DNA of 64,000 bases, from the IMG/VR virus record IMGVR_UViG_3300031994_000063; one strand, given 5' to 3'. The notes under the pieces were generated by a model. The model saw only the letters and a list, made by a program, of their open reading frames with translations, had not been told where the DNA came from and did no database searches. Source of the stretch: a virus. Its lineage: Duplodnaviria; Heunggongvirae; Uroviricota; Caudoviricetes. Positions 19,129-62,317 of this stretch are shown here, piece after piece. Both the position numbers and the translations under genes were made by a program. Numbering within the stretch: position 1 is the stretch's first letter; each line of letters begins with the position of its first letter.

Positions 19129-19776
19129 ATGATTATTGCGTTTGATACATATTATTACGATGGGTATTCGTATACCGTTGGTGGGGTGTTTGAAAGTTGG
19201 ACAGATACCAAAGTAAAATATTTCGTCACAAGTAAAAGAGAAACAATTGATGCAAAGTACAAACCAGGAGAATTATATAAACGTGAACTACCATGTATTA
19301 TGCAGTGTTTAAAAATGATAGACCTAGATGATGTTGACACAATTATCGTTGATGGATTTGTTTGGTTGTCTGAAAACGGAAAAGATAGAACTCTTGGAAT
19401 TGGTATGCGTTTGGCGAACGCTTTAATGGTAGAATACAACAGACCAGATATATCAATTGTTGGGATTGCTAAAAATCCATACCATTGTGAGATACCAGAT
19501 TGTGTTGAAATTTTACGTGGTAACTCAAACACACCTTTATGGATAACATGCTCTGAGTATCATTTCACTAATAATTATGCATCGTTAATAAAACAAATGG
19601 TTGGTAATTATAGAATACCAGATATTATCAAATCCGTTGATTCTAAAACAAGAGACATTAAATCAGTAGGCGATAAAAAACAGCCGAAACACAAGACATA
19701 TCATATTATGACTCACGATGAATGGGTTGAATTGGGTAAACCTCAATATTGTGGTGTGTATGTAGAAGATAAATAA
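19129..19776 (+). CDS. nfi: endonuclease V (Nfi) family protein
   Basis: AFDTYYYDGYSYTVGGVF, KYKPGELYKRELPC, IIVDGFVWLSENGKDRTLGIGMRLANAL and ISIVGIAKNPY align with the EndoV blocks (DV.Y, PYiPGlLafRE, DGqG..HPRr.G.A.H.G, PtiGvAK). Confidence 0.65.
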   Translation: MIIAFDTYYYDGYSYTVGGVFESWTDTKVKYFVTSKRETIDAKYKPGELYKRELPCIMQCLKMIDLDDVDTIIVDGFVWLSENGKDRTLGIGMRLANALMVEYNRPDISIVGIAKNPYHCEIPDCVEILRGNSNTPLWITCSEYHFTNNYASLIKQMVGNYRIPDIIKSVDSKTRDIKSVGDKKQPKHKTYHIMTHDEWVELGKPQYCGVYVEDK

Positions 19777-19831
19777 TATGCTAGTAAATAAATTTACAAA
19801 CCAAAGTGGCTAGGTTTTTTAGCCACAATAC

Positions 19832-19917
19832 ATACAGGTGGGGGAGTGGTTTAACCCAGCAATCTCCAAAATTGCCGTAGTTTTGTGCTACCGTAGGTTC
19901 GAATCCTACCCTGTATG
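19832..19917 (+). tRNA. tRNA-Trp(CCA) with extended variable hairpin
   Basis: Acceptor atacagg/cctgtat. Anticodon stem gcaat/attgc with loop ctccaaa. T-arm gtagg-ttcgaat-cctac. Confidence 0.5.
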
Positions 19918-20034
19918 CTATAATCCTTATCGGTGTTTACGGTGTAACAGAGCACTGCGCTTGGTCTATTAGTACCTTGAACTAACAAAAACCGTTAACT
20001 GTCGTGGTAGGTAGAGGAAGCCTACTATATTGTT

Positions 20035-20241
20035 ATGAGTATTGGATGTATTATTACTATTTTGTATTTTGTAATCGGAACATCGCTAGCATTTATGTGG
20101 TGGAATGATGAGTATAAGGCAGAATACGAGTATGAAAAAGAATGTGGTGAAGCAGAAGACCCTATGGCAATATTACTGCTTTTACTTTTCATATTTTTCT
20201 GGCCTTTTAAAGCCGTTAGAAATTGTTTTGACAATGAATAA
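20035..20241 (+). CDS. small membrane protein (two TM helices)
   Basis: MSIGCIITILYFVIGTSLAFMWW ... ILLLLLFIFFWPF. Confidence 0.4.
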   Translation: MSIGCIITILYFVIGTSLAFMWWNDEYKAEYEYEKECGEAEDPMAILLLLLFIFFWPFKAVRNCFDNE

Positions 20242-20857
20242 TAAGATAACTGAAAAGAAAAAAATACTATTCAGTAATTGTGAGGTTATTGTTGAAAAAT
20301 ACGATAATCACACAATAGATTCATATTCAATCACTCATGGCGAATCTTTTTTTCATGTTGGTGAACGTAAGGAGATTATAAATGGTGATAGAATTGTATC
20401 TAAAGAAGGTAAATGGCACAATAGGATAAAATGTAAATCGCCTTTGGGTTTTTATTATTATAAAGGAGAAAGCGATATACGTTATAAAACGTCTTATGAT
20501 GAATGCGGTAGGAGGAAAATATATATTATCACTTTTGACGGTGGTAGGTATGAAATAAAATATCTTGTTTCGTACAATAATACCTCAATATGCCATGAGA
20601 CGAGACCTTGGGATTTAAGTGGCAATGGAATGCCAGACCATTTTATCAAGGATTTGGAAAAGGTTCTGAATGATATTGTTGATTTCATGTATGGAACAAA
20701 ACTATATGATAAAGAAAAGATTTCAGAATTTAAAAATGACGTGTTCACAGATTTGTTTGGCTTTCCAGATGGAATGAAATCCCAAACAAATGAAGGAAAA
20801 ATTCTTTCTCACGGTTTTGATTTAAAAATGTCGTTTAGAAAAAGAAAAGAAGCATGA
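20234..20857 (+). CDS. hypothetical protein with C-terminal tail SHGFDLKMSFRKRK
   Basis: Start moved to the ATG at 20234 to avoid overlap with the 20035 ORF. C-terminal motif shared with ORF 44434-45072. Confidence 0.5.
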   Translation: MNNKITEKKKILFSNCEVIVEKYDNHTIDSYSITHGESFFHVGERKEIINGDRIVSKEGKWHNRIKCKSPLGFYYYKGESDIRYKTSYDECGRRKIYIITFDGGRYEIKYLVSYNNTSICHETRPWDLSGNGMPDHFIKDLEKVLNDIVDFMYGTKLYDKEKISEFKNDVFTDLFGFPDGMKSQTNEGKILSHGFDLKMSFRKRKEA

Positions 20858-21441
20858 AAAATCATACCAAACGATTTATGGTCATTTTCTCTATGTGGGG
20901 AAAGTCACTGTCTGCAAGAGATATGAGGGGGCTATTCAATCTTAAAGAATATGCCCATTCTGAAACCGAATTTGATACCGAATCAGAATGGAAAGAGGAA
21001 GTAGGGTTAATTGAAGATGTGTATGCAGATACCCCCAAACCGTATAAAGTAGAGATAGAGGGTTCTAAATACCATGAGAAAACATGGGAATTTGAAGTAA
21101 ACAGTAGATTTTGGGGCTACCTTGTCCTTGATTTTGATAAAGAAAGAGTTATTAAGGTTGGTGGTGACGGAATCTATAAATATCATAAAAATGGTATAGG
21201 AAGTTGGAGGTCAGAACTAGTAAGCCTTAGAATGCTTGATGAATTCTTTAGGGGTAAAGACGAAATACCTAAAGACTATGTTTTCGATACTGGCGAATAT
21301 GAAGGATGGCTTCAATATCGTTGGGGTGATAGGAAAAACGCTATAACTCGTGATAATAGAAAAGTACGCACGAAGAAAGTAGTCAAAGGAAAACATGCAC
21401 CATTAACAGATGAGGAACGTGAATATATTTTATCTGAATAA
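20854..21441 (+). CDS. hypothetical protein
   Basis: 195 aa. ATGA overlap with the upstream gene. Confidence 0.5.
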   Translation: MKNHTKRFMVIFSMWGKSLSARDMRGLFNLKEYAHSETEFDTESEWKEEVGLIEDVYADTPKPYKVEIEGSKYHEKTWEFEVNSRFWGYLVLDFDKERVIKVGGDGIYKYHKNGIGSWRSELVSLRMLDEFFRGKDEIPKDYVFDTGEYEGWLQYRWGDRKNAITRDNRKVRTKKVVKGKHAPLTDEEREYILSE

Positions 21442-21657
21442 AAACATATTTTAACTGTTAATATTTGGAACTTTCAAAAACTTTATATATCTTTGCATTG
21501 TTAATTAATTGTCTAACTAAATAAATTACGATTATGATTGAGTTTATCATTGGTGGCGTTGTAGGTTGGTTTGCTTATAAGTATAAAGGCAAGATTGGTC
21601 TCTAATAGGCTGATAACTTACGAAAAAGGCACTGAGTTTGTCTAACAGTGCCAAACT

Positions 21658-21728
21658 AGGGCATTCGTTCATCGGAAGGACATTAGGCTTACATCCTAAG
21701 AAGGGCGGTTCGATTCCGTCATGCCCTA
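21658..21728 (+). tRNA. tRNA-Val(TAC)
   Basis: Acceptor agggcat/atgccct. Anticodon stem ttagg/cctaa with loop cttacat. T-arm ggcgg-ttcgatt-ccgtc. Confidence 0.55.
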
Positions 21729-21812
21729 CTTTTTTCTAAAAAAAACGTTAAAATATTTGGCTATTTCAATTTTTTTTTCATATCTTTGCATTACAAAAAA
21801 AAAATAAATGTC

Positions 21813-21938
21813 ATGGAGGTAAAATGTGTAAAATGTGGAAATCATATCAAAATTGACATTTCCAATGCGATTGACGAGAATGGTGAGGTGTTTTTATGCC
21901 CTCATTGTGGTTTTCATTTTAGATATACCGAAAAATAA
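21813..21938 (+). CDS. small zinc-ribbon protein (41 aa)
   Basis: MEVKCVKCGNH...CPHCGF directly after a consensus promoter. Confidence 0.45.
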   Translation: MEVKCVKCGNHIKIDISNAIDENGEVFLCPHCGFHFRYTEK

Positions 21939-22177
21939 CCTTTTGCACGTTAAAGGCTTATCAGCAGGACAGCAACAGTGAATATCTATAACGTGCTCGT
22001 AAGCATACTTTAGATTAAGAATGCCGTATATTGGTCTTAACTACGTTAATGCAAGACAAGTCTGCGATGGCTCGAAGGGGTACAGTAGGCGAAACATGCT
22101 TGAGGGGTGATATATTGGAAGACACACGCCATCTTATAGTGGGGTACAGTAGGTTCAAATCCTATCACAAGCACTAA

Positions 22178-22250
22178 GGAAACATACAGCAAGTATTAAG
22201 AATTTTTAAGAGCAAAACTTTTAATTTTGATTTCTAAAAACATGTTTCCG
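22178..22250 (+). ncRNA. hairpin-bounded element copy h
   Basis: ggaaacat acagcaag ... atgtttcc. Confidence 0.45.
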
Positions 22251-22277
22251 TATTTTTAACATAAAACAATATTTATA

Positions 22278-22838
22278 ATGGCAGTAGGTGTTATCATTGC
22301 AAGAATACAGCCCATACATAAAGGGCATCTTGAGTTAATACGGCAAGCACTAAACGAGAATGAAAATGTTCTTCTGCTCGTTGGTTCTGCCGATAAACTC
22401 AATAAAAGGAATCCAATACCAATTGCTATGAGATTGGAACTCGCTAATAAGGCGATAGAAGAGGCATTTAAAGAGGACTCTAAAAGGGTTAGAATACAAC
22501 CATTAGCAGACCTTACAGATGAATCGGACAACTCTCATGATTGGGGCTTTTATCTCTATAGTCACATTGTTGGGTTTACAAAATCTCCAGAGTTTACAAT
22601 ATATTACTCTGATGGTTTTGAGATAATTATGCAGTGGTTTCCACCTTTCATTACGAGAGATTTCGTATCATTCAAACTTAATGCAAGGGGAACTATCCAC
22701 AATAGTCTGTCTGCTACGAAAGTAAGGGAAATGATTCTTAAAGAGGATATTGAAAGCCTTAGAGAAGCAGTTCCAACTTGCGTTATAGAAAATGCAATGA
22801 TTTTGAAACATTTTATTGAAGCGTTTAAAGACGTATAA
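22278..22838 (+). CDS. nicotinamide/nicotinate mononucleotide adenylyltransferase (NadM-type)
   Basis: GVIIARIQPIHKGHLELIRQA matches the GRFQPxHxGH nucleotidyltransferase motif of archaeal-type NMNAT. Confidence 0.7.
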   Translation: MAVGVIIARIQPIHKGHLELIRQALNENENVLLLVGSADKLNKRNPIPIAMRLELANKAIEEAFKEDSKRVRIQPLADLTDESDNSHDWGFYLYSHIVGFTKSPEFTIYYSDGFEIIMQWFPPFITRDFVSFKLNARGTIHNSLSATKVREMILKEDIESLREAVPTCVIENAMILKHFIEAFKDV

Positions 22839-22979
22839 TAAAAATATAGCTAGTTCCGCAGTACGATAAATAAATTGGCAAGCGTATAACGTTGGTATCC
22901 TATAACGGACTCATATAACATTAGGAGGTCTAGTGAAACTTGTGTGGTGAAAAATCGGAAATCCACAAACTAGCTTTAT

Positions 22980-23053
22980 CGAGGGGTATATCAGTTGGTT
23001 AGATTGTCATCCTGATAAGATGAAGGTCGCAAGTTCAAGTCTTGCCCTCTCGA
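22980..23053 (+). tRNA. tRNA-Ile(GAT) second copy
   Basis: Acceptor cgagggg/cctctcg. Anticodon arm identical to the 15964 copy. T-arm gcaag-ttcaagt-cttgc. Confidence 0.55.
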
Positions 23054-23500
23054 CAATTTTTTATCATGGGCTTGTAATGGATTTGACAGCAATGCATTTG
23101 GTAAGAAACAAGCAGTGGGCATACACTTGAAATAGCAAAAAAAATATAAACGGCGAGAATGTTAATTCTCCTGCTTACGAGTACGCTATTGCAGCGTAAG
23201 TAAGCCGAGAGGCTAGGCTCTTAGGAACAGAACATCCTAGCATTCTTTCTTTAGTCATCTTTTAGTTTTCCTTGTTTTCACAAAACAAGGTGGTCTCAAA
23301 GGCGGTGTCTTCGGACACTTTGGGGAAGCTTGTATAATTTCTTATGGAATGGTTGTTTGGACCGCAGTTCGACTCTGCGCAAGTCCACTTAACTACTTGA
23401 AAATCAAACGCTTAACAAAATTTAAGAAAAAACTTCTTGAAAATTTTGGAACTTTCAAAAATTTTATATATCTTTGCATTGTTAAACAAAAAGACATACA

Positions 23501-23782
23501 ATGAGTAAAATTTTAGATAAAGATTTCAGAAACGAACTATATAAAAGCCTTCAAGAGGCTGGTTATAGCAAAGGAGAGGCTACTAATATTGTTAGTGTAA
23601 AATATTGTGAGGCTCTTAAAATCAATTTAGTTGATAAACTTAGAGAACAAGCAGATAATATTGAGCATGGCAAAGAGGAACTATTGCTTAGTGTTGATGA
23701 ATATAGTAGTATCCTTTCAGAATTGGCTAAACTCAAAGAGTTTTTCGACAAAAAAGAAGAAAAAAATGCAAATAAATCTTAA
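23501..23782 (+). CDS. hypothetical protein
   Basis: 93 aa. Promoter ttttggaactttcaaaaattttatatatctttgcattg upstream. Confidence 0.5.
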   Translation: MSKILDKDFRNELYKSLQEAGYSKGEATNIVSVKYCEALKINLVDKLREQADNIEHGKEELLLSVDEYSSILSELAKLKEFFDKKEEKNANKS

Positions 23783-23841
23783 AAAATTTGGATATTAAAA
23801 ATATTTTTCATATCTTTGCATTGTTGATTTGAAAATAGCAA

Positions 23842-23906
23842 GGAAACTTACAGCAAATTATTCTTAACATCAAATTGTCACTTTGAAACGTTTAGAAAAG
23901 GTTTCC
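23842..23906 (+). ncRNA. hairpin-bounded element copy i
   Basis: ggaaac ttacagcaa ... ggtttcc. Confidence 0.45.
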
Positions 23907-23924
23907 GATTTAAATACATAATAT

Positions 23925-24009
23925 CGTGGGATAGTGTAATGGTAACATGCAAGGCTCATAACCTTGAGACGGAACTCGCATCGTGTTGGTTCGAATCCAA
24001 CTCCCGCAA
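23925..24009 (+). tRNA. tRNA-Met(CAT)-like with C1·A72 and 18-nt variable region
   Basis: Anticodon stem caagg/ccttg with loop ctcataa. T-arm gttgg-ttcgaat-ccaac. 3' end tcccgcaa resembles bacterial initiator tRNA. Confidence 0.45.
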
Positions 24010-24012
24010 CTA

Positions 24013-24170
24013 ATTTTGTGGTGGACAAATCAAAAAACCACCTTTTGGAAGATACCAGAGGAGAACGTCAGTAATGACGATGTAGACAAATGGGCATTAA
24101 GTTCGTGCTTAATGTGTCACTTCGGTGGCTTCGCTAGTGCAAATCTAGCTCTACCAACAAATGTAGTATA
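24013..24170 (+). ncRNA. structured small RNA, copy 1 of a ~160-nt duplicated element
   Basis: Hairpins ggtgg..ccacc, acgtca-GUAA-tgacgt (GNRA), cattaag-ttcgtg-cttaatg, tcac-UUCG-gtgg, gctag-tgcaaat-ctagc. Second copy at 24316 carries compensatory changes in three helices. Confidence 0.6.
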
Positions 24171-24315
24171 AACGCTCAGGTGCAATCGGCAGTAAAGGTT
24201 GGCGAGGAAAGTGAGGTTGCGACAAACACACAACTGTATGAAACATAGCAGATGTCCTTTACCATTAAATTAGTTCTGCAAAATGAATTAGCCTTTACAA
24301 TACTATAATTATATC

Positions 24316-24474
24316 TTGTGGTGGACAAGTTAAAAAACCACCTTTTGGTTAGTACCAGAGGAGAACGTCAGCAATGACGATGTAGACAAATGGGCATCAA
24401 GTTCGTGCTTGATGTGCTTCTTCGGAAGCTTCAGCAGTGCAAATCTGCTCTAACCAACTAGATATGCCTTTTCG
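24316..24474 (+). ncRNA. structured small RNA, copy 2 of the duplicated element
   Basis: ~88% identical to copy 1. Helices catcaag/cttgatg, cttc-UUCG-gaag and agcag/ctgct preserve pairing through double substitutions. GCAA replaces GUAA in the tetraloop. Confidence 0.6.
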
Positions 24475-25588
24475 TGCCGTAGACAACGGTAAAAATGGGT
24501 TTTATGTGGTTAAACAATCCATATCTATGGTAACTTCGGGAGCCATAATTCTAGAGAACGTGTACTAGAAAAAAATGAATTGGGGAAGGTATTCTATAAT
24601 GGTGTAAAGAATTGGAGCTTGGGATAGAAGCCCACCTCGTAAGAGGAAGCAGTTTACTGATTATAATAATCCAAAATGGAAATAATACCCAAAAGAATAA
24701 GCCGATTCTAAGAGGAAATATCTTGTGAAAGATATAAGGCTGATGGCTAGCTTTCGTAGCCAGATAGAAGGATAATCCAGTGATGGGATAAATGAGACGG
24801 ACATTGACAACTAAGCCGACTCAGATGCTCTGGTTTCCCAGAGCATTTCACTGAAAAGCATATGGTACGGTATGTCGTTCGGTAGGTAAACTGTGGGACA
24901 TACTACCTAGGTTAACCGCTTAGGTTGAGTAGTGATACAATAGATTACCATATGGAACTCGATACAATAGTCACCAGTTGGCGTGTTGGGTTCAAGTAAA
25001 CATTCGTCTTAACGTGAAAGGCGTGGTCTATAAGCGTTAAGAACCGTAAGGCTGAGAATGGGTATTAGTGCTACAGACCTGTGGTGGGTTTGGCATAGGA
25101 AGGCGATTTAGTGGGCTGTGTTCAAAAGACACGGATGCTAAGGGTCGCACCTCGTCTTCCATTAGTTGTGAGTTGTAGCTCAAGTGGTAGAGCAGCCGAC
25201 TTGAAATCAGCGTGTTACAGGTTCGATTCCTGTCGATTCTAATAATAGAATTATAGAAGCAAAAGTGTGCGACACTGAGCAGATAAAATGCACTTATCTC
25301 TCCTGCAATATGGAGGCATCGGTGACTCGCAAGGAATCCGATGAACGAGTAAAAGTAGTCATCTGAGTTAACAGGAGGCATCCTGTGAATCCGCAAGAGC
25401 TTGGTGGTGAAATGAATGTTATGATTCTGTACCGAGAGGTTTAAATCAGTAAGAGTTTGGTAGTTTTCGCAAAACTATCGTGCATGATGTCTACGTCTGC
25501 CGTAAGGTAGCGTGTGAAGAGCAAGTTCCAACGCTTGTATAAAGGCATCAACAATAAGGTCAAATTCTCAGCCTTTTTGTATTTATAT

Positions 25589-25713
25589 AGGGATTTAGCT
25601 TAATTGGCAAGAGTAATTTGTTGCGACTTAAGGAATAAAGCACTCTCGACTTCGGAACAGAGTGTGCCTTTAACTGTTAATAAACGATGGCGGTTCGAGT
25701 CCGTCAGTCCCTG
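25589..25713 (+). ncRNA. tRNA-like with ~50-nt insertion (contains repeat tctcgacttcggaacaga)
   Basis: Perfect acceptor agggatt/agtccct. D-arm tagcttaattggcaagag. T-arm ggcgg-ttcgagt-ccgtc. Total 125 nt. Confidence 0.35.
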
Positions 25714-25856
25714 CAATAAGTAATTCTCATGGGGTATAAACACGTTGGGTGGTGACCTGCTGGTCGGTTTCATGCATAAGAAGACCATACGAGAGGCGGT
25801 AAATATAAGACCTCTTGGAGTTCGAATCTCCAATACTCCACTTAAACAATTAACAT

Positions 25857-26183
25857 ATGAGAGAATTTACTTATAGCGGTTTCGAAAATCAAGAAACTTG
25901 CAATCACCTCAGAGGAGGTGAGACGTGTAAAGTAACTGGTATTGGAAATTCTATGACCCCTATTCTTAAATCAAGACAAGCGGTTATATGTGAACCAGTA
26001 AAAGATGATACAAAACTAGAAAAGAAAGATATTGTTCTTTGCAAAGTTAGAGGTCATCATTATCTGCACCTAATCCATGCAATTAAAAATGATAGTGAAT
26101 ATCTTATTGGTAGCAATAGAGGGCATATGAACGGATGGGTAGGTAGAAACCAAATCTACGGAAAAGTAGTAGAGATTCTTTAA
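25857..26183 (+). CDS. S24-family (LexA/UmuD-like) peptidase domain protein
   Basis: VTGIGNSMTPIL (GDSM-like Ser motif), KKDIVLCKV, HLIHAIKNDSEYLIGSN and IYGKVVEIL follow the S24 C-terminal domain pattern. Confidence 0.55.
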   Translation: MREFTYSGFENQETCNHLRGGETCKVTGIGNSMTPILKSRQAVICEPVKDDTKLEKKDIVLCKVRGHHYLHLIHAIKNDSEYLIGSNRGHMNGWVGRNQIYGKVVEIL

Positions 26184-26230
26184 GGTCAAATGGTTGTAAT
26201 GAAGGTTCGATTCCTTCTGACTAACAAACG

Positions 26231-26302
26231 GGGGTATAGGCTAACAGGCTAAACTGATAGCTTTGCAAGCTATATTTGAGAGTTCGAGTCTCTCTACCTC
26301 CA
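26231..26302 (+). tRNA. tRNA-Ala(TGC)
   Basis: Acceptor gggggta/tacctcc. Anticodon stem atagc/gctat with loop tttgcaa. T-arm gagag-ttcgagt-ctctc. Confidence 0.6.
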
Positions 26303-26385
26303 CTAAGGTATTGGATAATGCTACGATGAGTAGGTAAAGAGTTTCGTAGTGTGGCTTTACCGTTTCCAATTCCTTAACCAATAGT

Positions 26386-26458
26386 GGGAACTTACAGCAA
26401 TGACTATATGGAATTTGCTTGAAACGAATACAACCGAAAAAAGTTCCCTTCAGCACAA
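26386..26458 (+). ncRNA. hairpin-bounded element copy j
   Basis: gggaactt acagcaatg ... aagttccc. Confidence 0.45.
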
Positions 26459-26684
26459 AACTTACGATAGAGGCGTAGGGGTACAAGCGTGGGCTAACGT
26501 TAACTGAATTAACAGCTACTGAGGGTGTGAGTAATTACATCTAGGCGTAATGGTGGACACTTAGTAATAGCCTTATTGGTGTGCCGAAGTGCTCAATGTC
26601 AAGTCCTTATGGGATAAAAGAAATCTTGGCGGTTGAGAATAACGAGATTCCAGATGAAAGTACCTCCGTAAGTTTTATTAATCA

Positions 26685-26768
26685 TGGGGTGATGTAGTGG
26701 TAACATGACGGTCTCATAAGCCGTATACGCTTGAAACGCTTGCGTTGGTTCGAATCCAACCCCCTTGA
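26685..26768 (+). tRNA. tRNA(CAT)-like with long variable region
   Basis: Anticodon stem acggt/gccgt with loop ctcataa. T-arm gttgg-ttcgaat-ccaac. Acceptor pairing imperfect. Confidence 0.4.
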
Positions 26769-26773
26769 CATAA

Positions 26774-26839
26774 GGAAGCATACAGCAATGTTTTAATAGG
26801 ACTTGATTTGTAATCAAATATTCTAGAAAAATGTTTCCG
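26774..26839 (+). ncRNA. hairpin-bounded element copy k
   Basis: ggaagcat acagcaatg ... atgtttccg followed by a T-tract. Confidence 0.45.
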
Positions 26840-27023
26840 TTTTTATTAACTAATTAAAATAAAAATAATTATTATGAAGAAAAACAGTTTTTGGTAGGTT
26901 TTCAGCCAATTTTGGTAGCTGAATCGTGTTCGTGGTACTCCTAAAATTAATTCGTTAGGGGAAAAAAGTGAAGTAAAGTTTTTAACATTTAAAGAATATA
27001 ACGAATTAATAATAGGAAAAAAT

Positions 27024-27627: not shown

Positions 27628-27727
27628 TGCGATATAAAAGCACTATAGGCTCTTGCTTATGGTGCTTTTTTCGTAAAAAATTCTTAAAAAATTTTGATAA
27701 TTCAATTTTTTTTAGTATCTTTGCAAT

Positions 27728-28045: not shown

Positions 28046-28054
28046 TATTTAACT

Positions 28055-28145: not shown

Positions 28146-28244
28146 CTACAGCTAGTACAAAGTTAAAAATTGTTAAAGTTGAACTGATTATTTGGTTAGT
28201 TCACCTTTTTTTCGTACCTTTGCATCAATAAAACAATAAACAGC

Positions 28245-29215: not shown

Positions 29216-29220
29216 AATAT

Positions 29221-31124: not shown

Positions 31125-31142
31125 CTAAGAAATATATAGTGT

Positions 31143-53834: not shown

Positions 53835-55250
53835 ATGAAAATTTATGATTATGGTAAAATCAAGACTTGTTTAATATGCGGAAGCATTAATGGGAATGTT
53901 GACCATTTTGTTAAAATGATTGTTGGTAGTCTAACCGACATAAGAAAGTATAAAGTCGAGCAGCACCCAAAAGAAATAGAAAGACAAGAAAGGATTAGAA
54001 GAAAACAAGAAGAAGAGGCTCAAGTATTGGCTGATAGACGCGACCCATTTGGCATAGGTGGCGGCATTCCACACCCTCATGACCAGCATGGCAATACCAT
54101 TAGAAGGTATGCGAAGAAAATAAGCAAAATGCCGAGGTCTTGTGGCTATCTTTTAGATAACACTGTGTTAATTGTCAATGGCTCAAATACATTTGGTCAA
54201 AACGATTTGAAATATTATTATGACAAATTTAATATGCTAAATGATGTGTTAGCCGACAATAACACGCATATCCTATTTGTGAGAGGTAATGATGACCCTA
54301 AATATTTTACGGATGAATTACTTAATCTTAGTAATGTGAAAACTATTCAAGATTATTCTGTAATTAAACTAAGCAAGTTCAACTGTTTATGTATCGGTGG
54401 TCAAGTTTCATTGGACAGACTTTGGAAATCTGAGCAAGAAAAAAGAATAGGTAAGAAAATGTTTTGGGAAAATGAGAAGATGATGTTTGACGAAAATGCT
54501 ATAAACGAAATATTTTCCAAGCACAAAATATCTTGTATTGTTACACCTAGTTCCCCATCATTTGCATATCCAGGAACAAACGTTTTCAAGAAAAGCCCTT
54601 GGGTCGCAAAAGATAAATCTCTTTTAAATGACCTTAACGATGAAAGGGTAATGATGGATAGAATATATAATAAAATCATTGAAAGTAAAAGCAAGCCTTA
54701 TATGTGGGCTTACAGTAGGTTTGATACTTCTAATCAATCTATGATTAATGATATGTTATTTCAATCATTGTGTCCGTTTCAGTTTCTCAACTTTAATGAC
54801 ACAGCCGCAGAATTCTTTAACATCGACTTTTCTAAACAACTTAAAGAAAATGAATTTTCGTCAAATGGCGAAATGGTTAAAAAATCTTATACCATTTCAT
54901 CGTCAATAGGAGATTTTAGGAATGCCTTTAATGATGATGACATTTTTGGTGTAGCTGACGAAGAAATTGACGAAGATGACCATGCTGAAGAGGGTAATGA
55001 ACAAGAAGAAATGGGAGATTTTGAAATGGCAAATCCAAATATGGAAATGGCGCAAGTTGAGGCTGAAAATGTCAATGAAATGAATGGAGTACCGTATTTA
55101 GGTGATACGATACATTGGGAACCTGGACGCTATGCAATACTTGAAGATAATATAGCAGCACCAACTCTTGATATGGATGTGGCAACTGCTGAGAGAGCAG
55201 TGCCCTATGAAATATTTCGAGAAAGCGTTGACGTAGCATTAAGGCAATAA
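53835..55250 (+). CDS. metallophosphoesterase-like protein (degenerate motifs), acidic C-terminus
   Basis: ICGSINGNVDHF and HILFVRGNDDP loosely resemble calcineurin-like phosphoesterase motifs (GDxHG, GNH[DE]). C-terminal 100 aa very acidic. Confidence 0.3.
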   Translation: MKIYDYGKIKTCLICGSINGNVDHFVKMIVGSLTDIRKYKVEQHPKEIERQERIRRKQEEEAQVLADRRDPFGIGGGIPHPHDQHGNTIRRYAKKISKMPRSCGYLLDNTVLIVNGSNTFGQNDLKYYYDKFNMLNDVLADNNTHILFVRGNDDPKYFTDELLNLSNVKTIQDYSVIKLSKFNCLCIGGQVSLDRLWKSEQEKRIGKKMFWENEKMMFDENAINEIFSKHKISCIVTPSSPSFAYPGTNVFKKSPWVAKDKSLLNDLNDERVMMDRIYNKIIESKSKPYMWAYSRFDTSNQSMINDMLFQSLCPFQFLNFNDTAAEFFNIDFSKQLKENEFSSNGEMVKKSYTISSSIGDFRNAFNDDDIFGVADEEIDEDDHAEEGNEQEEMGDFEMANPNMEMAQVEAENVNEMNGVPYLGDTIHWEPGRYAILEDNIAAPTLDMDVATAERAVPYEIFRESVDVALRQ

Positions 55251-56114: not shown

Positions 56115-57074
56115 ATGGCTGAAAATACACTGTTATTTAAACAATTTAGAAGTAAATTTGTCAAAGACTTCAATTTGCCCATCCAAGTTGTCCAATCGCC
56201 TTATTTTGACGAACATATAAAACTACTTGAGGATGATTGTGGGGCAAATACAAAATATCTCACCTTGTTAGAAACTGTTAGAGATAAATTTGACGGTAAT
56301 ATGCAGAAATTCCTTGAGTATCGGCATATCATTGAAGACCAAATATTAGCCTATATACTAAATTCTGAGGCTTACAAGGAGTTTAATAACGATAAGAACA
56401 CAATTCCCTCAGAAACACCAATTGTAGGCTCTAGAGAACTCTATACGAAAGAACAAGATGGATGCTTTTTCATATCCTATGATATGATTAAGGCAAATTT
56501 CCAAGCATTGAGGTATGCAAATCCAGCAATTGTAAGGGATTGCAACACATATGAAGAGTTTATTGGCAAGTTTACTGACATCGAATATTTTGCCCATGCA
56601 AAACAACTTAGGCAAGTAATATTCGGTAAACTAAATGGCAAAAGAACTGCTTCGATTGAGAAATTAATTTCAAATAGATTCGCAAAAGAATATAGTCAGA
56701 GATTAGGAATATATGGATTTGAACCATATTCAATTAAAACTGATGAAATTATCTTCAAGTTTGATTGTAGTGAATCAGAATTTGAATCTTTTCACTCTTC
56801 TGACATAGAATTCAGTGGATTTAAATTCCGTGTGAACAAATTTAAACTTATGTCTCAAGACTTCAAACGTGGAGTTTCTGACAGAATTGTCACGGCATAT
56901 ATTAAAGAAGATTATTTAAATGGCAGGAAACACACTTTACATTGCGTTCCTGACACTTATTACCCACAAGTGTATAAACTACTCAATGGGATGGAAATAA
57001 CGCCATCAGATTTAGTTTTCTACTATGAACACGAATTGGCTAAATTTATGTATCCGTTAGAAATGATAAAATAA
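56115..57074 (+). CDS. hypothetical protein
   Basis: 319 aa. Promoter cacgtttttttcatatatttgcattaacg upstream. Confidence 0.5.
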   Translation: MAENTLLFKQFRSKFVKDFNLPIQVVQSPYFDEHIKLLEDDCGANTKYLTLLETVRDKFDGNMQKFLEYRHIIEDQILAYILNSEAYKEFNNDKNTIPSETPIVGSRELYTKEQDGCFFISYDMIKANFQALRYANPAIVRDCNTYEEFIGKFTDIEYFAHAKQLRQVIFGKLNGKRTASIEKLISNRFAKEYSQRLGIYGFEPYSIKTDEIIFKFDCSESEFESFHSSDIEFSGFKFRVNKFKLMSQDFKRGVSDRIVTAYIKEDYLNGRKHTLHCVPDTYYPQVYKLLNGMEITPSDLVFYYEHELAKFMYPLEMIK

Positions 57075-57075
57075 A

Positions 57076-58482
57076 ATGAACGAACTATTATTTAAAAAAG
57101 TTGATGATAGAATCAAACACCTAGTTGACCTCATACAAGCGTCAATCAAAAACACCCATTTTGAAGGAAAGGTATATTTGGTTGGCGGTTGTGTGCGCGA
57201 TGCATTGTTAGGATTGCCCATTAAAGACATCGACATCGTTGTTGAAATGAAGAACGGGGGGATGCTGTTTGCTGGATATATGGCAATGAAACATCAATGC
57301 TATGTTCAGAATACTAATCCAGTGATATTTGAAAACTATGGAACTGCGAAGTTCCAATTATTCAAGAATGATGAATTCAAAGATATAGAGATTGAATGTG
57401 TCCAAACTAGAAAGGAACAGTACCACAAGGAAAGCAGAAACCCAGAAACTGTATTCGGAAGCCTTGAAGAAGACGCAAAGAGGCGTGACCTTACCATTAA
57501 TTCTCTATATTATAACATCAGTACAGAGAAAATACATGATTTTAACGGCTCTTTAGATGACTTGGTAAATCAAGTAATAAAGACTCCAACTGACCCAGAT
57601 GTTACATTCAATGATGACCCATTGAGAATTCTACGTGTAATTCGTTTTTCAACTAGATTCGGTTGGGATATTGAAAAAAACACTTGGTTAGGTATGGTTA
57701 AAAATGCGCACCGTATTCAAATTATTTCACAAGAAAGAATTAGTGATGAAATATCCAAGATTCTACTTTGTGAAAAACCAAGTATCGGTATTAGGAAAAT
57801 GTATTTCTGTGGCATTCTGCATAGAGTGATGCCCGATATTTATGATACAACCTACGCTTATGAGTCAAGGAATCCTATGGTTAGCACATTTGACCATACG
57901 ATGAACGTGCTAGATACTGTTCAGCCTTATTTAGAAAACAGATTAGCTGCTTTATTCCATGATGTTGGTAGAATCATAACAGAGAAGCGTAGGGATGTAA
58001 TGCCAGATAAGTTTAGTGCAGAAATTGCTGCAAGCGACTTGAAGGACATGAAATACCCTAATTACATCATTAAATCTGTTGAAACTGCTATTAAGCATCA
58101 TAGAGGTTTTGCAAGTTATGCTGATGGTATATTGCCTCCAGATAAGAAGATTAGGAAATTCATCAACTTAACTGGTGATGATTTAGGAGCAACTGTTGAC
58201 CTAATGAACGCCAATAATCTCTATTGTACTTTTGGTAAGAAGAAAAGACAAGTTCTTGATATTCTCAATAGAATTGAAGAAATGGAAGACGCTGAAAAAG
58301 CAGCAAATGTTAAACTTCCAATTTCTGGGAATGACATCATAAAAGAATTTAAAATCAAACCTTCTCCAACAATCGGCATATTGCTTGAGGCAGTCAAAGA
58401 TGCTTACTTTGAGAATCCTAATATGACTAAGGATGAAGCATTTGAGATTGTAGAGAACAAATTGAAGAGCCTAACAGTCTAA
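57076..58482 (+). CDS. cca: tRNA nucleotidyltransferase (CCA-adding enzyme) with HD domain
   Basis: YLVGGCVRDALLGLPIKDIDIVV is the class II polymerase-beta head motif. LAALFHDVGR is the HD motif. 468 aa is typical of bacterial CCA enzymes. Confidence 0.8.
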   Translation: MNELLFKKVDDRIKHLVDLIQASIKNTHFEGKVYLVGGCVRDALLGLPIKDIDIVVEMKNGGMLFAGYMAMKHQCYVQNTNPVIFENYGTAKFQLFKNDEFKDIEIECVQTRKEQYHKESRNPETVFGSLEEDAKRRDLTINSLYYNISTEKIHDFNGSLDDLVNQVIKTPTDPDVTFNDDPLRILRVIRFSTRFGWDIEKNTWLGMVKNAHRIQIISQERISDEISKILLCEKPSIGIRKMYFCGILHRVMPDIYDTTYAYESRNPMVSTFDHTMNVLDTVQPYLENRLAALFHDVGRIITEKRRDVMPDKFSAEIAASDLKDMKYPNYIIKSVETAIKHHRGFASYADGILPPDKKIRKFINLTGDDLGATVDLMNANNLYCTFGKKKRQVLDILNRIEEMEDAEKAANVKLPISGNDIIKEFKIKPSPTIGILLEAVKDAYFENPNMTKDEAFEIVENKLKSLTV

Positions 58483-59393: not shown

Positions 59394-59969
59394 ATGAATA
59401 AAATCTTAATTTTAATAGATAGTCAATATGGCTTTCTAGAAGGTGGCAATCTTCCAGTGGAAGGCGCAACCCATAAAATGAATCGTCTTGCTGAATTTAT
59501 ACGTGAAAACGGTCCAGCATATGATAAGATATTTCTAACGGCAGATTGGCATCCGCATACGCATTGTTCATTCAAGGCAAACGGTGGGGTATGGCCAGAA
59601 CATTGCGTACAACATACGCATGATGCAGCAATCTATCAGCCAATTATTGATGCTTTGAACGCTATTAATAGTGACTACATTGTTTTGACTAAAGGGGTTG
59701 ATGAAGACCACGAGGAATATTCAGTGTTTAAGAATGAAAAGTCTAATGCATTGCTTACCAACATATGCGAAATGATGAAAGTGACTGATATTGACATTTG
59801 CGGTATCGCATTAGACGTATGTGTATTTGATTCTTTGAAAGATGGATTAAGGGCATTCCCAAATACTAATTTTCACCTTCTTATTGATTTTTGCCCAGCA
59901 ATAACAAAAGATGGGGAGGAAAAAGTTATAAACTTTATCAATAATTCAGAAAGAGTAAATATTGGATAA
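59394..59969 (+). CDS. pncA: nicotinamidase/pyrazinamidase
   Basis: LILIDSQYGF (catalytic Asp), DWHPHTHCSF and WPEHC (metal site), LTKG (Lys), DICGIALDVCV (catalytic Cys). Start set at MNKILIL. Confidence 0.8.
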   Translation: MNKILILIDSQYGFLEGGNLPVEGATHKMNRLAEFIRENGPAYDKIFLTADWHPHTHCSFKANGGVWPEHCVQHTHDAAIYQPIIDALNAINSDYIVLTKGVDEDHEEYSVFKNEKSNALLTNICEMMKVTDIDICGIALDVCVFDSLKDGLRAFPNTNFHLLIDFCPAITKDGEEKVINFINNSERVNIG

Positions 59970-60825: not shown

Positions 60826-60844
60826 CGTTTTTTAACATGATTTA

Positions 60845-60880
60845 TTTGGGTATTTGAAATATTTTTCGTACCTTTGCACC
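60845..60880 (+). promoter_or_regulatory. promoter driving tRNA-like gene at 61086
   Basis: tttgggtatttgaaatatttttcgtacctttgcacc. Confidence 0.5.
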
Positions 60881-61085
60881 ATGAAGCTTCAAAACGGTAA
60901 CTGAAAGACGTGGTGAGGGCAGTCCTGCCACACGACATTGCTAAGATATAACAGTCTCGACTTCGGAACAGATTGACGCTTGCAATGGAGTTAGTTTGAC
61001 CGAGATTGTAAAACAGTCGGTTATCAAGCAATCACTTAGATGAGTGCGGAAGAAGGAAACGCTAGCCGCATGAAGATTGCGTTAA

Positions 61086-61170
61086 GGACAATAGCTCAGT
61101 TGGGAGAGCGCACAAGAAACGTGGAAACACAAAGTAAGGTGAGGTCTGTAGTTCGAGTCTACATTGTCCT
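61086..61170 (+). ncRNA. tRNA-like with ~25-nt insertion carrying a GGAAAC-motif fragment
   Basis: Perfect acceptor ggacaat/attgtcc. D-arm agctcagttgggagagc. T-arm tgtag-ttcgagt-ctaca. Insertion aagaaacgtggaaacacaaagtaagg. Confidence 0.4.
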
Positions 61171-61186
61171 ACTAATTAATAAAAAA

Positions 61187-61390
61187 ATGGCAACAGAAAC
61201 TTTAGGAGCACATCTTAGGAATTTATTAACCCCATATAAAACATTGTTGTCTCTTGTTGAGGACATCAATAATGGAGAAATTGAATTGGATGTTCTGAAA
61301 AAAATCAAATGTGATAACATTGACGAAATTATAGAATTTTCCCATTCCGACAAAATGGAAAATAATTTGTGGAGAGAAGAAACAGAATAA
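61187..61390 (+). CDS. hypothetical protein (start trimmed out of tRNA-like gene)
   Basis: ATG at 61187 (MATETLGAHL...). Confidence 0.45.
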   Translation: MATETLGAHLRNLLTPYKTLLSLVEDINNGEIELDVLKKIKCDNIDEIIEFSHSDKMENNLWREETE

Positions 61391-61408
61391 TCAATAAAAA
61401 TAAAATTT

Positions 61409-62317
61409 ATGAGTCTAGAAGTTTATCAAAAAATAAACACCTTGCATAAAAGGTATGTATTTGATGGCAATAAATGTCCAAACAAAAAGTGGCTTAAGTT
61501 CAAAAATAAAATAATCTTGGGCGAGTTTTCAAACATTGAGGCTAGTTACCTTTTCAATTGTCCTTGGGAGGCATATAGTAAGATAGATGGCACAAACTCT
61601 AAGATTGCATTTTTTCCATCTACCCAAGAGATTCGTATTGAGGGTAAAAACGAGGAATCAAGCTCTCAGCATGGACAGTTCGAAATGTTGCAAGAGATTG
61701 GTGAGCGTATCAAGCCACAACTTTGTGCAATGTTCCCAAAAGAGAGTGCTAGATTTACCCCAGTAAAGAACAAAGAAACCAATAAGGTTCAATATTACCT
61801 AGAGGCAGATGGTTCAGCCCTTATTGAGCCTAAAAATGGGTTTGTTGGTGTGGAACTTGAAGAGACTCCAGTTTATATCTACGGAGAGTATTTTGGTACT
61901 GGTATTCAGAAGTGCGGTTCTCGTTATATTCAGAATGGTAATGCATTCCGTGTGTTTGACATAAAACAGCAAGGTTGGTGGACACCAAAGGATGTAAGAG
62001 ACTCATTGTGTAAGGGTCTTGGACTAGACACTGTTCCTTTCTTGGGTATAATGACGCTCAAGGAAATCGAAGATAAGGTTAGGGGTGGCTTCACAACTCA
62101 GTTTGAGGGCGCTGCTGACCCAACTATGATTGAGGAGGGTATTGTTGCTCGTCCAGTGATTCCACTTTGCGATGGAAGCGGTAAGAGAATCATCGTAAAG
62201 GTTAAATACTGTGATTACATTGCGTATGACACTGTGCGTAAGGAGTTTTCAGACGAAGAGTTTGAAGAGTTTAACACATGGTATCACGAAAACATTGAAA
62301 ATATTAAAGTAGAGTGA
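61409..62317 (+). CDS. RNA ligase, Rnl2-like
   Basis: Motif I KIDGTN (compare KIHGTN of T4 Rnl2). Motif IV EGIVARP. Motif V IIVKVK. Size consistent. Confidence 0.65.
   Translation: MSLEVYQKINTLHKRYVFDGNKCPNKKWLKFKNKIILGEFSNIEASYLFNCPWEAYSKIDGTNSKIAFFPSTQEIRIEGKNEESSSQHGQFEMLQEIGERIKPQLCAMFPKESARFTPVKNKETNKVQYYLEADGSALIEPKNGFVGVELEETPVYIYGEYFGTGIQKCGSRYIQNGNAFRVFDIKQQGWWTPKDVRDSLCKGLGLDTVPFLGIMTLKEIEDKVRGGFTTQFEGAADPTMIEEGIVARPVIPLCDGSGKRIIVKVKYCDYIAYDTVRKEFSDEEFEEFNTWYHENIENIKVE

What the first reader, a model, noticed from the sequence alone, without database searches (positions are those of the whole stretch)
19129..62317. tRNA and RNA repair toolkit: Rnl2-like ligase, CCA-adding enzyme, PTH2-like hydrolase, EndoV, phosphoesterase
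This toolkit sits alongside 40 or more tRNA genes. It includes an Rnl2-family RNA ligase (KIDGTN / EGIVAR / KVK motifs) and a full-length CCA-adding enzyme with an HD domain. There is also a putative PTH2-type peptidyl-tRNA hydrolase, an endonuclease V homolog and a metallophosphoesterase-like protein. Together these suggest the phage can heal cleaved or 3'-damaged tRNAs and recycle stalled peptidyl-tRNAs. That would be expected for evasion of anticodon-nuclease or CCA-trimming host defences. An Rnl2-plus-CCA combination without an obvious T4-type Pnkp is unusual. The phosphoesterase-like ORF 53835-55250 is a candidate end-healing partner.
Basis: partly seen in the sequence, partly recalled or inferred. 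Interest (0 to 1): 0.7.

Follow-up and report, generated by a model that had tools for sequence, protein, structure and literature searches.

The report
Megaphage tRNA-support genes, not one toolkit
All five genes are real in this ~400-kb gut megaphage, but they are scattered accessory genes of a kind already described for jumbo phages, not one repair module, and the proposed end-healing phosphoesterase lacks a normal active site; the new result is that the PTH2-like hydrolase gene sits next to stop-codon suppressor tRNA genes across many recoded phages.

Summary
All five ORFs exist at the stated coordinates.

- **Ligase, 61409-62317:** an intact Rnl2-like adenylyltransferase. A family profile hits T4 Rnl2 at E=2e-20. 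It lacks the Rnl2 C-terminal domain.
- **CCA enzyme, 57076-58482:** a class II tRNA nucleotidyltransferase with an HD domain. None of the window's 36 tRNA genes encodes CCA, so routine tRNA maturation explains it.
- **EndoV-like, 19129-19776:** a divergent endonuclease V with its acidic catalytic residues kept.
- **PTH2-like, 27328-27627:** a PTH2-superfamily member only by transitive homology.

The genes span 43 kb. Their Lak-phage homologs span 130 kb. The ligase family shows no steady link to tRNAs or to any partner gene. No Pnkp, RtcB or 2H domain is in the window, but the rest of the ~400-kb genome was not seen. Jumbo-phage sets of tRNAs, Rnl2, CCA enzyme, PTH2 and NAD salvage are already published.

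The new result concerns the PTH2-like gene. In 66 of 79 tRNA-bearing phage loci its nearest tRNA is a suppressor, and this holds in 23 of 27 protein clusters.

The parts
2264..39556 (+). Array of 36 tRNA genes. None encodes 3'-CCA, and 34 of 36 have a C right after the discriminator base.
   Evidence: ARAGORN found 30 and Rfam added 6. The 3' flanks were read.
19129..19776 (+). Divergent endonuclease V homolog. The conserved core is residues 1-177. tRNA-Trp follows the gene.
   Evidence: Pfam PF04493 22.2 bits. A clade profile hits mouse/human EndoV 6ozq at E=8e-4. D6, E53, D75, K115 and E143 are invariant among the nine sequences aligned. Among INPHARED phages, only Lak phages have homologs.
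23068..23390 (+). Phage-encoded tmRNA with tag peptide GENVNSPAYEYAIAA.
   Evidence: ARAGORN. Rfam RF00023, 73 bits.
27328..27627 (+). PTH2-superfamily protein of 99 aa.
   Evidence: PHROG 3668 at 3e-7. Homologs in LR756500 and LR756501 pass Pfam PTH2. Start codon set from ortholog alignment.
28055..28146 (+). Amber suppressor tRNA (anticodon CTA) with a long variable arm. It lies 428 nt downstream of the PTH2-like gene and 9 nt after ORF 27728-28045.
   Evidence: ARAGORN. Rfam tRNA, 55 bits. Fold. Sequence.
53835..55250 (+). Metallophosphoesterase-fold protein with a degenerate active site and a disordered acidic C-terminal tail (about residues 346-455).
56115..57074 (+). Unknown 319-aa protein that ends 1 nt before the CCA gene. 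It precedes the CCA gene in all seven relatives examined, directly abutting it in four. Invariant residues are D123, K126, N128, F129, then R166, Q167, G171, N174, K176, R177, then D210, E211.
   Evidence: Synteny. Alignment. No Pfam, PHROG, NCBIfam or PDB hit.
57076..58482 (+). Class II tRNA nucleotidyltransferase (CCA-adding type) with a C-terminal HD domain.
59394..59969 (+). Nicotinamidase (PncA-like).
   Evidence: Pfam Isochorismatase and NCBIfam PRK11609 at 3.7e-17. Start codon set from orthologs.
61409..62317 (+). Rnl2-like RNA ligase made of the adenylyltransferase domain only. Compared with the short (206-245 aa) homologs it has inserts at residues 21-31, 86-96 and 126-146, plus a tail at 283-302.
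62938..64000 (+). Nicotinate phosphoribosyltransferase (PncB-like), cut off by the end of the window.
   Evidence: tblastn with the L001 NAPRTase gives 87% identity over 354 aa.

Best explanation
The window is the tRNA and translation-support region, mixed with NAD-salvage genes, of a roughly 400-kb megaphage. The phage is distantly related to the Prevotella Lak phages and probably infects Bacteroidota. The five genes are separate accessory functions, not one repair machine.

(a) The CCA-adding enzyme mainly completes the phage's own 36 tRNAs, because none of their genes encodes CCA. It could also rebuild trimmed 3' ends. Its HD domain is the only plausible 3'-end phosphoesterase in the window.

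(b) The ligase is a catalytically intact Rnl2-type adenylyltransferase that should seal 3'-OH/5'-phosphate RNA breaks. It lacks the Rnl2 C-terminal domain. In T4 Rnl2 the isolated N-terminal domain cannot carry out 5'-adenylylation of the nick (recalled from the T4 Rnl2 literature). So this ligase must use its clade-specific inserts or a partner, and its substrate is unknown.

(c) The PTH2-like protein acts together with the stop-codon suppressor tRNA. It probably hydrolyses peptidyl- or aminoacyl-tRNA during the switch of genetic code.

(d) The EndoV-like protein cuts next to inosine in DNA or RNA.

(e) ORF 53835 is a phosphoesterase-fold protein that has lost the standard two-metal site, so it is not an end-healing enzyme.

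Shown here: the family and fold assignments, motif conservation, absence of encoded CCA, gene scatter, and the PTH2-suppressor linkage. Inferred: all substrates and physiological roles.
For: - Genome type: relatives are contigs of 295-415 kb. Lak phages carry homologs of four of the five genes.
- CCA enzyme: domain and family hits. 0 of 36 tRNA genes encode CCA.
- Ligase: T4 Rnl2 is the best solved relative at E=1.7e-20. The motif residues are conserved in 70 to 74 of 74 sequences, and the protein ends 36 aa after motif V.
- No module: gene order is conserved only within the clade. In Lak-B5 the homologs lie at 254, 315, 341 and 384 kb. The ligase family has no steady tRNA or partner context.
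- PTH2-like: a suppressor is the nearest tRNA in 66 of 79 loci that have any tRNA, although suppressors are only 75 of the 612 tRNAs in those loci. The link holds in 23 of 27 protein clusters.
- ORF 53835: fold shown. Motifs I, II, IV and V carry no conserved His or Asp ligands.
- The published jumbo-phage survey describes the same gene classes (PMC7824862).
Against: - The ligase does sit inside a tRNA array next to a Ro-like protein in Streptomyces phage Coruscant. A tRNA-directed role in some lineages is therefore plausible.
- The CCA and ligase genes are only 2.9 kb apart, and that order is conserved across relatives of 73-96% identity.
- No function was tested.
- The ligase structure prediction failed (pLDDT 40), so its extra segments are uncharacterised.
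- The phosphoesterase-fold family keeps N152 and D153 and several cysteines, so a non-canonical active site cannot be excluded.
Confidence: 0.6

Rival explanations
1. The five proteins cooperate to heal tRNAs cut or trimmed by host anticodon nucleases or CCA-trimming defences. ORF 53835, or the HD domain, heals the ends. The ligase seals the break. The CCA enzyme rebuilds the 3' end. PTH2 frees stalled peptidyl-tRNA.
For: - All the enzyme classes are present.
- The same classes are interpreted this way for jumbo phages in PMC7824862.
- A ligase homolog sits inside a tRNA array next to a Ro-like protein in Streptomyces phage Coruscant.
- The CCA-to-ligase order is conserved within the clade.
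Against: - No kinase, HAD, 2H, RtcB or RlaP domain was found in any window ORF.
- ORF 53835 lacks the canonical catalytic residues.
- The genes are dispersed here and in Lak phages.
- The ligase family is not linked to tRNAs or to the other four genes elsewhere.
- The CCA enzyme is explained by tRNA genes that lack CCA.
- The PTH2-like gene tracks suppressor tRNAs specifically.
Confidence: 0.2
2. The ligase belongs functionally to the NAD-centred gene cluster around it (nicotinamidase upstream, NAPRTase and, in relatives, NADAR downstream). On this reading it acts on nucleic-acid damage linked to NAD or ADP-ribose conflicts, not on tRNA.
For: - The ligase lies between PncA-like (59394-59969) and PncB-like (62938 onward) genes. 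Relatives have NADAR a little further downstream.
- PMC7824862 notes links between RNA repair and NAD-processing systems.
Against: - The wider ligase family shows no recurrent NAD-gene neighbours.
- PF09414 enzymes are ATP-dependent as far as is known (prior knowledge).
- The adjacency may simply reflect clustering of accessory genes.
Confidence: 0.1
3. The EndoV-like and ligase proteins serve DNA metabolism. EndoV would repair deaminated adenine in the AT-rich genome, and the ligase would seal RNA-DNA junctions or nicks. On this reading they have nothing to do with translation.
For: - Bacterial EndoV is a deoxyinosine repair nuclease (prior knowledge).
- The genome is about 34% G+C.
- Rnl2 seals nicks in duplexes in which the broken strand is RNA (abstract of PMC3884662, listed).
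Against: - The EndoV-like gene lies within the tRNA array, and tRNA-Trp follows it in six relatives examined.
- The best solved matches are the mammalian EndoV enzymes at E=8e-4. Bacterial EndoV scores only 0.26-0.5. The mammalian enzymes act on RNA (prior knowledge).
Confidence: 0.1

Closest known systems
T4 RNA ligase 2 (Rnl2, gp24.1)
   Same: It has the same adenylyltransferase domain, with motifs I, III, IIIa, IV and V and the N-terminal segment. It is the best solved relative of the family profile (E=1.7e-20).
   Different: There is no C-terminal domain, because the protein ends 36 aa after motif V. It has clade-specific inserts. It belongs to a large, uncharacterised family of mostly 206-245 aa proteins (1651 cluster representatives). 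It gives no direct phmmer hit to any solved ligase.
T4 Pnkp plus Rnl1 tRNA repair against the PrrC anticodon nuclease
   Same: It is also a phage with its own tRNAs and an ATP-dependent RNA ligase.
   Different: No kinase-phosphatase domain and no Rnl1-type ligase was found in the window. There is no evidence of a matching host nuclease.
Jumbo-phage RNA-repair, translation and NAD gene sets (Iyer et al. 2021, PMC7824862)
   Same: That survey describes tRNA arrays together with Rnl2-family ligases, the CCA-adding enzyme, PTH2 and NAD-salvage genes in jumbo phages.
   Different: In this window the usual partners (PNK, HAD, 2H, RlaP) were not seen. An Nfi-type EndoV homolog and a degenerate phosphoesterase-fold protein are present. 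The PTH2-like gene is tied to suppressor tRNAs.
Bacterial class II CCA-adding enzymes with an HD domain (for example E. coli Cca)
   Same: It has the head domain, the RNA-binding domain and an HD domain with H...HD residues.
   Different: It scores below every NCBIfam equivalog cut-off (216 against 438.8 bits). Its specificity (CCA, CC, A or polyA) is untested. In one relative the gene is split by a homing-endonuclease-like ORF.
Archaeal and eukaryotic peptidyl-tRNA hydrolase 2 (PF01981)
   Same: It is of similar size and has the same N-terminal K-L-x-V-L-V...Q..HA pattern. Intermediate homologs pass the Pfam threshold.
   Different: The window protein itself gives no Pfam or PDB hit. An invariant E-P-D lies in the region where canonical PTH2 has its D-A-G motif (motif recalled, not aligned here), and the lysine position is variable. 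The gene is linked to suppressor tRNAs.
'Code change module' of recoded Jade phages (suppressor tRNA, aminoacyl-tRNA synthetase and release factor; Borges et al., bioRxiv 10.1101/2021.08.26.457843)
   Same: In both cases a protein-coding gene is tightly linked to a suppressor tRNA in phages that reassign stop codons.
   Different: The partner here is a PTH2-like hydrolase, which that paper does not mention (0 occurrences of 'hydrolase').
Dbr1 and inactive phosphoesterase-fold proteins (CWF19L1, GAP50, DNA polymerase B-subunits)
   Different: It lacks the Dbr1 metal ligands. It resembles the inactive members in having lost most of the motif residues.
Endonuclease V (Nfi, and mammalian ENDOV)
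   Same: It has the Y-x-P-G-x-L-x-x-R-E wedge and Glu motif, the V-D-G Asp, and the C-terminal R-I-P...D..(T/S)-R motif.
   Different: It is about 40 aa shorter at the N-terminus. An invariant Glu aligns with the His of the mouse G-H motif, read here as the catalytic His (prior knowledge). It scores below the Pfam gathering threshold.

Membership tests
Rnl2-type RNA ligase | Covalent nucleotidyltransferase motifs I (KxDG), III, IIIa, IV and V | tested here: met
   K58, D60, G61, E160, F183, D184, E243, G244, K264 and K266 are conserved in 70 to 74 of 74 family members. Pfam PF09414 scores 58 bits.
Rnl2-type RNA ligase | Closer to Rnl2 than to other ligase families | tested here: met
   The family profile gives T4 Rnl2 E=1.7e-20, Pab1020 (Rnl3) 1.8e-7 and REL1 0.11. 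DraRnl (Rnl5, TIGR02306) scores only 18.9 bits.
Rnl2-type RNA ligase | Rnl2-specific C-terminal domain of about 90 aa, needed for nick 5'-adenylylation | tested here: not met
   Only 36 residues follow motif V. Residues 283-302 are a clade-specific tail. Most homologs are 206-245 aa in total.
Rnl2-type RNA ligase | ATP-dependent sealing of 3'-OH/5'-phosphate RNA nicks | not testable with these tools
   This needs biochemistry.
Class II CCA-adding enzyme | Pol-beta head domain and the neck/RNA-binding domain | tested here: met
   PF01743 at 3.8e-25 and PF12627 at 2e-15. PHROG 2244 at 2e-64. S. pombe cca1 (9ns2) at 1.8e-33.
Class II CCA-adding enzyme | Passes a curated equivalog model | tested here: not met
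   The best model, TIGR02692, scores 215.7 bits against a cut-off of 438.8.
Class II CCA-adding enzyme | CCA specificity, as opposed to poly(A), A-adding or CC-adding | tested here: inconclusive
   CCA models outscore pcnB (216 against 132 bits). There is a functional need, because 0 of 36 tRNA genes encode CCA. Specificity cannot be read from sequence.
HD-domain phosphohydrolase (the Cca-type end-healing activity) | HD domain with H...HD residues | tested here: met
   PF01966 scores 25 bits against a gathering score of 22. FDHTMNV and LFHDVG are read in the sequence and are conserved in relative L011. Activity is untested.
PTH2 peptidyl-tRNA hydrolase (PF01981) | Direct match to the family model | tested here: not met
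   No Pfam hit even at E up to 10. No PDB hit with profiles.
PTH2 peptidyl-tRNA hydrolase (PF01981) | Homology through intermediate sequences | tested here: met
   Homologs in LR756500 and LR756501 (tblastn 2e-4 and 3e-3) score 30.8 and 33.6 bits on PF01981 over positions 1-103 of 115.
PTH2 peptidyl-tRNA hydrolase (PF01981) | Catalytic residues and hydrolase activity | tested here: inconclusive
   Q22, H25, E71, P72, D73 and T79 are invariant, but the lysine-position residue varies among K, R and E. No residue-level alignment to a solved PTH2 was obtained.
Endonuclease V | Match to the family model or to solved structures | tested here: inconclusive
   Pfam scores 22.2 bits against a gathering score of 23.4. 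The clade profile hits mouse/human EndoV at E=8e-4 over two colinear stretches.
Endonuclease V | Catalytic Asp, Glu, Asp and His | tested here: inconclusive
   E53 and D75 align with the residues of the mouse R-E-V-P and V-D-G motifs. D6 is assigned by reading A-F-D-T-Y against the canonical G-x-D-V-S-F. An invariant E143 aligns with the His of the mouse G-H motif. Which of these residues are catalytic is taken from prior knowledge.
Metallophosphoesterase (calcineurin-like) | Fold | tested here: met
Metallophosphoesterase (calcineurin-like) | Motifs DxH, GDxxDRG, GNH[DE], H and GHxH that bind two metals | tested here: not met
   The family columns read C-G-(N/S)-I-(D/N)-G, V-(D/N/S)-G-(C/S/N)-(N/C)-x-F-G, R-G-N-D-D, C-I-G-G and T-x-S-(C/S)-P-S-F. 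Only the Asn of motif III is kept. The only near-invariant His (H44) lies in an inserted helix.
T4-type Pnkp or other end-healing enzymes (PNK P-loop kinase, HAD, 2H, RtcB, RlaP) | Presence of such a domain | tested here: not met
   Pfam scans of 60 + strand ORFs of 93 aa or more gave none. This applies to the 64-kb window only; the rest of the roughly 400-kb genome was not available.

The most novel reading that the evidence does not exclude
The PTH2-like protein is a dedicated partner of stop-codon suppressor tRNAs and a previously unrecognised part of the machinery by which large phages switch the genetic code.

The gene and a suppressor tRNA form a conserved pair. The tRNA usually lies 12-60 nt downstream on the same strand. 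The pair persists while the anticodon changes between CTA, TCA and TTA. In several lineages the hydrolase gene itself carries an in-frame TGA at its invariant Trp, or a TAG at one fixed loop position, so the full-length protein would be made only once suppression is active.

The protein might recycle peptidyl-tRNA dropped at reassigned stops, or it might control the charging state of the suppressor.
Probability: 0.5. Interest if true: 0.75.

Novelty: new variant of a known kind. Interest (0 to 1): 0.5.

Why it matters
As a tRNA-repair toolkit this is an ordinary example of what jumbo phages are already known to carry. Its most interesting proposed part, the end-healing phosphoesterase, does not hold up.

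Two things go beyond the known picture:
- The ligase belongs to a very large, biochemically untouched family of Rnl2-like enzymes that lack the domain T4 Rnl2 needs for one reaction step. How they work is an open question.
- The PTH2-like gene is linked to suppressor tRNAs across many recoded phages. How these phages enact the code change is stated as an open question in the recoding literature. This linkage supplies a specific protein that can be tested directly.

Tried and rejected
- **Ligase structure.** The AF2 model from 39 close homologs failed (pLDDT 40), so no fold search was possible for it.
- **Ligase against solved structures.** phmmer and a shallow profile found nothing in the PDB. 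Only the diverse profile worked.
- **PTH2-like protein against solved structures.** Profile searches of the PDB found nothing. hhalign against a remembered human PTRH2 sequence was weak.
- **ORF 56115-57074.** I suspected a Thg1-like or polymerase-palm enzyme from its D...KANF, RQ..G..N.KR and DEII motifs. No database or PDB support was found, so this idea is left open and not claimed.
- **Introns in the long tRNAs.** Introns would have made the ligase a splicing enzyme. This was rejected, because the extra bases fold as long variable arms.
- **TAG recoding inside the window.** None is evident. TAG ends 8 of the 62 + strand reading frames of 100 or more codons, and reading through it lengthens no ORF meaningfully.
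- **Theta or HDV-like ribozyme next to the suppressor tRNA.** None was found by Rfam.
- **Group I intron in the split CCA gene of L011.** There was no Rfam hit. The insert is a free-standing endonuclease-like ORF.
- **A conserved partner of the ligase.** Neighbour clustering in 80 loci found none.
- **Near-identical DNA in the INPHARED phage collection.** None was found.

Full report
**What the window is**

All sizeable ORFs lie on the + strand and G+C is about 34%. The window holds 36 tRNA genes between 2264 and 39556 and one tmRNA at 23068-23390.

There is no near-identical DNA in the INPHARED phage collection. The proteins, however, have 73-100% identical relatives on metagenomic viral contigs of 295-415 kb. 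Lak megaphages of Prevotella carry homologs of four of the five genes at 29-53% identity. I therefore read the window as part of a roughly 400-kb megaphage distantly related to Lak. A Bacteroidota host is an inference.

**The ligase (61409-62317)**

- Pfam RNA_ligase scores 58 bits and PHROG 548 gives 8e-17.
- The single sequence and a shallow clade profile find nothing in the PDB.
- An exhaustive search finds 1651 cluster representatives, most of them 206-245 aa.
- A 74-member profile hits T4 Rnl2 at E=1.7e-20. That is far ahead of Pab1020 (1.8e-7) and REL1 (0.11).
- The motif residues K58, E160, F183/D184, E243/G244 and K264/K266 are conserved in 70 to 74 of 74 sequences.

The protein nevertheless ends 36 residues after motif V, so it has no Rnl2 C-terminal domain. 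In T4 Rnl2 the isolated N-terminal domain cannot carry out 5'-adenylylation of the nick (recalled from the T4 Rnl2 literature). The window protein adds clade-specific inserts at 21-31, 86-96 and 126-146 and a tail at 283-302. Structure prediction failed (pLDDT 40).

**The CCA enzyme (57076-58482)**

It has the head, RNA-binding and HD domains. It matches PHROG 2244 'tRNA nucleotidyltransferase' at 2e-64. It scores 216 bits on TIGR02692 against 132 bits on pcnB. Its best solved relatives are tRNA nucleotidyltransferases. It falls below every equivalog cut-off, and specificity cannot be read from sequence.

The decisive context is that none of the 36 tRNA genes encodes CCA. The phage's own tRNAs need this activity simply to mature. 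Repair is possible but is not needed to explain the gene.

**The EndoV-like protein (19129-19776)**

It sits just under the Pfam threshold. A clade profile matches mouse and human EndoV at E=8e-4 over two colinear stretches. The wedge and Glu motif, the VDG Asp and the C-terminal RIP...D..TR motif are all aligned, and an invariant Glu aligns with the His of the mouse G-H motif. Among deposited phages, only Lak has homologs. Whether it acts on DNA or RNA is open.

**The PTH2-like protein**

The real start is 27328, giving 99 aa. It gives no direct Pfam or PDB match. Its homologs in two other huge phages pass the Pfam PTH2 threshold over nearly the whole model. Superfamily membership therefore holds by transitivity.

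**ORF 53835-55250**

The positions that follow the core strands, where the five canonical motifs sit, read as follows in the family alignment:
- C-G-(N/S)-I-(D/N)-G
- V-x-G-x-N-x-F-G
- R-G-N-D-D
- C-I-G-G
- T-x-S-x-P-S-F

Only the motif III Asn survives, and no histidine is conserved in any motif. This is the pattern of inactive fold members, not of an end-healing enzyme.

**Is it a toolkit?**

- Pfam scans of 60 + strand ORFs of 93 aa or more found no kinase, HAD, 2H, RtcB or RlaP domain.
- The block from the 48815 ORF to the ligase keeps its gene order within the clade. The five genes nevertheless span 43 kb among unrelated genes, and in Lak-B5 the four homologs lie at 254, 315, 341 and 384 kb.
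- In 80 other viral loci carrying this ligase family, only 19 have any tRNA within 5 kb. None has a homolog of the other four genes, and no neighbour family recurs in more than 11 loci.
- The exception is Streptomyces phage Coruscant, where the ligase lies inside a tRNA array near a Ro-like protein.
- In the window the ligase is flanked by NAD-salvage genes: nicotinamidase upstream and NAPRTase downstream, with NADAR further on in relatives.

The jumbo-phage survey by Iyer et al. already describes tRNAs with Rnl2, the CCA enzyme, PTH2 and NAD salvage as counter-defence equipment (PMC7824862). The general idea is therefore known.

**What turned out to be new**

The PTH2-like gene lies 428 nt upstream of an amber suppressor tRNA (28055-28146). 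The same pairing appeared in Lak phages (with a TTA suppressor) and in two other huge phages. It also appeared in 10 of the 11 clade relatives checked, despite shuffled tRNA orders; the eleventh locus ends about 230 nt after the gene.

I then fetched 80 viral loci with this protein at 32-99% identity. The results were:
- 70 loci have a suppressor within 5 kb.
- In 66 of the 79 loci with any tRNA, the nearest tRNA is a suppressor, usually 12-60 nt downstream on the same strand.
- Suppressors are only 75 of the 612 tRNAs in these loci.
- Two of the negative loci are truncated right after the gene.
- The linkage holds in 23 of 27 protein clusters, and the anticodon varies among CTA, TCA and TTA.
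- Twenty of 84 copies carry an in-frame stop. Some have TGA exactly at the invariant Trp. Others have TAG (TAA in one case) at one fixed loop column.

The ligase loci serve as a negative control for the method. The recoding papers I could read do not mention a hydrolase. One of them states that the mechanism of code change is unresolved.

In the window itself, a terminator-like hairpin and a 105-aa ORF lie between the hydrolase gene and the tRNA. The window's genes show no in-frame TAG.

**Verdict**

The integrated repair interpretation is only partly supported, and the specific end-healing proposal is disfavoured. The finding as written is a new instance of a known kind. The PTH2-suppressor pairing is the part worth following up.

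Noticed in passing
window 27328-28146; loci L051-L054, L012-L025, L057-L136: The PTH2-like gene is paired with a stop-codon suppressor tRNA. The suppressor is the nearest tRNA in 66 of 79 loci, and the pairing holds in 23 of 27 protein clusters. The anticodon switches among CTA, TCA and TTA. I found no report of this in the papers searched.
   Followed up: yes
L079, L092-L094, L099; L101, L107-L114, L120-L126, L128; L052: Some PTH2-like genes carry an in-frame stop. It is either a TGA at the invariant Trp, or a TAG (a TAA in L120) at one fixed loop column after 'EH[GPW]'. A matching suppressor is nearby in most of these loci, so the full-length protein would depend on suppression.
   Followed up: partly
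window 2264-39556: None of the 36 tRNA genes encodes CCA, yet 34 of 36 have a C immediately after the discriminator base.
   Followed up: partly
window 19832-19918, 11109-11198, 23925-24010, 26683-26769, 39381-39464, 28055-28146: The Trp, Arg(ACG), Met and suppressor tRNAs, normally short-armed, carry variable-arm insertions of roughly 10-20 nt. In relatives the suppressor occurs both with and without the arm (73-77 nt against 86-92 nt).
   Followed up: partly
window 25589-25713: A 125-nt tRNA-like element (Rfam tRNA, 36 bits) was not called by ARAGORN. It may be a tRNA with a large insertion.
   Followed up: no
window 2521-2608, 11109-11198; L014-L017: Several tRNAs have A at the wobble position: Leu-AAG and Arg-ACG here, and Thr-AGT, Ser-AGA and Cys-ACA in relatives. 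If these are deaminated to inosine, they would be potential substrates of the EndoV-like nuclease.
   Followed up: no
window 22278-22838, 29221-29721, 29721-30089, 41888-42481, 59394-59969, 62938-64000: NAD-salvage and related genes are scattered through the window: NMN adenylyltransferase, CinA/PncC-like, a HIT protein, Nudix, nicotinamidase and NAPRTase. Relatives add NADAR. The ligase sits between the nicotinamidase and the NAPRTase.
   Followed up: partly
window 56115-57074: An unknown 319-aa protein abuts the CCA gene. It has invariant D...KANF, RQ..G..N.KR and DEII motifs. Homologs occur in Salicola phage SCTP-2 and in another huge phage, where no CCA gene lies within the 5 kb of flank fetched.
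   Followed up: partly
L011 2165-4939: In one relative the CCA gene is split into 173-aa and 298-aa ORFs by a 434-aa ORF with DUF723 repeats and a C-terminal region resembling PD-(D/E)XK (DUF559-type) endonucleases (the latter by reading only). That ORF closely resembles window ORF 43263-44450 by reading (same KVHGDKYDYSKV repeats; not aligned).
   Followed up: partly
window 23068-23390: The phage encodes a tmRNA with tag GENVNSPAYEYAIAA. It is present in most of the related loci examined.
   Followed up: no
window 4508-5446: A weak endonuclease/exonuclease/phosphatase-family ORF (24 bits, just under the threshold) sits between tRNA-His and tRNA-Pro. It is a possible 3'-end processing enzyme.
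   Followed up: no
window 48815-51301 and 51635-53695: Two large paralogous ORFs (about 26% identity) of unknown function lie upstream of the phosphoesterase-fold gene. The second ends in ankyrin repeats.
   Followed up: no
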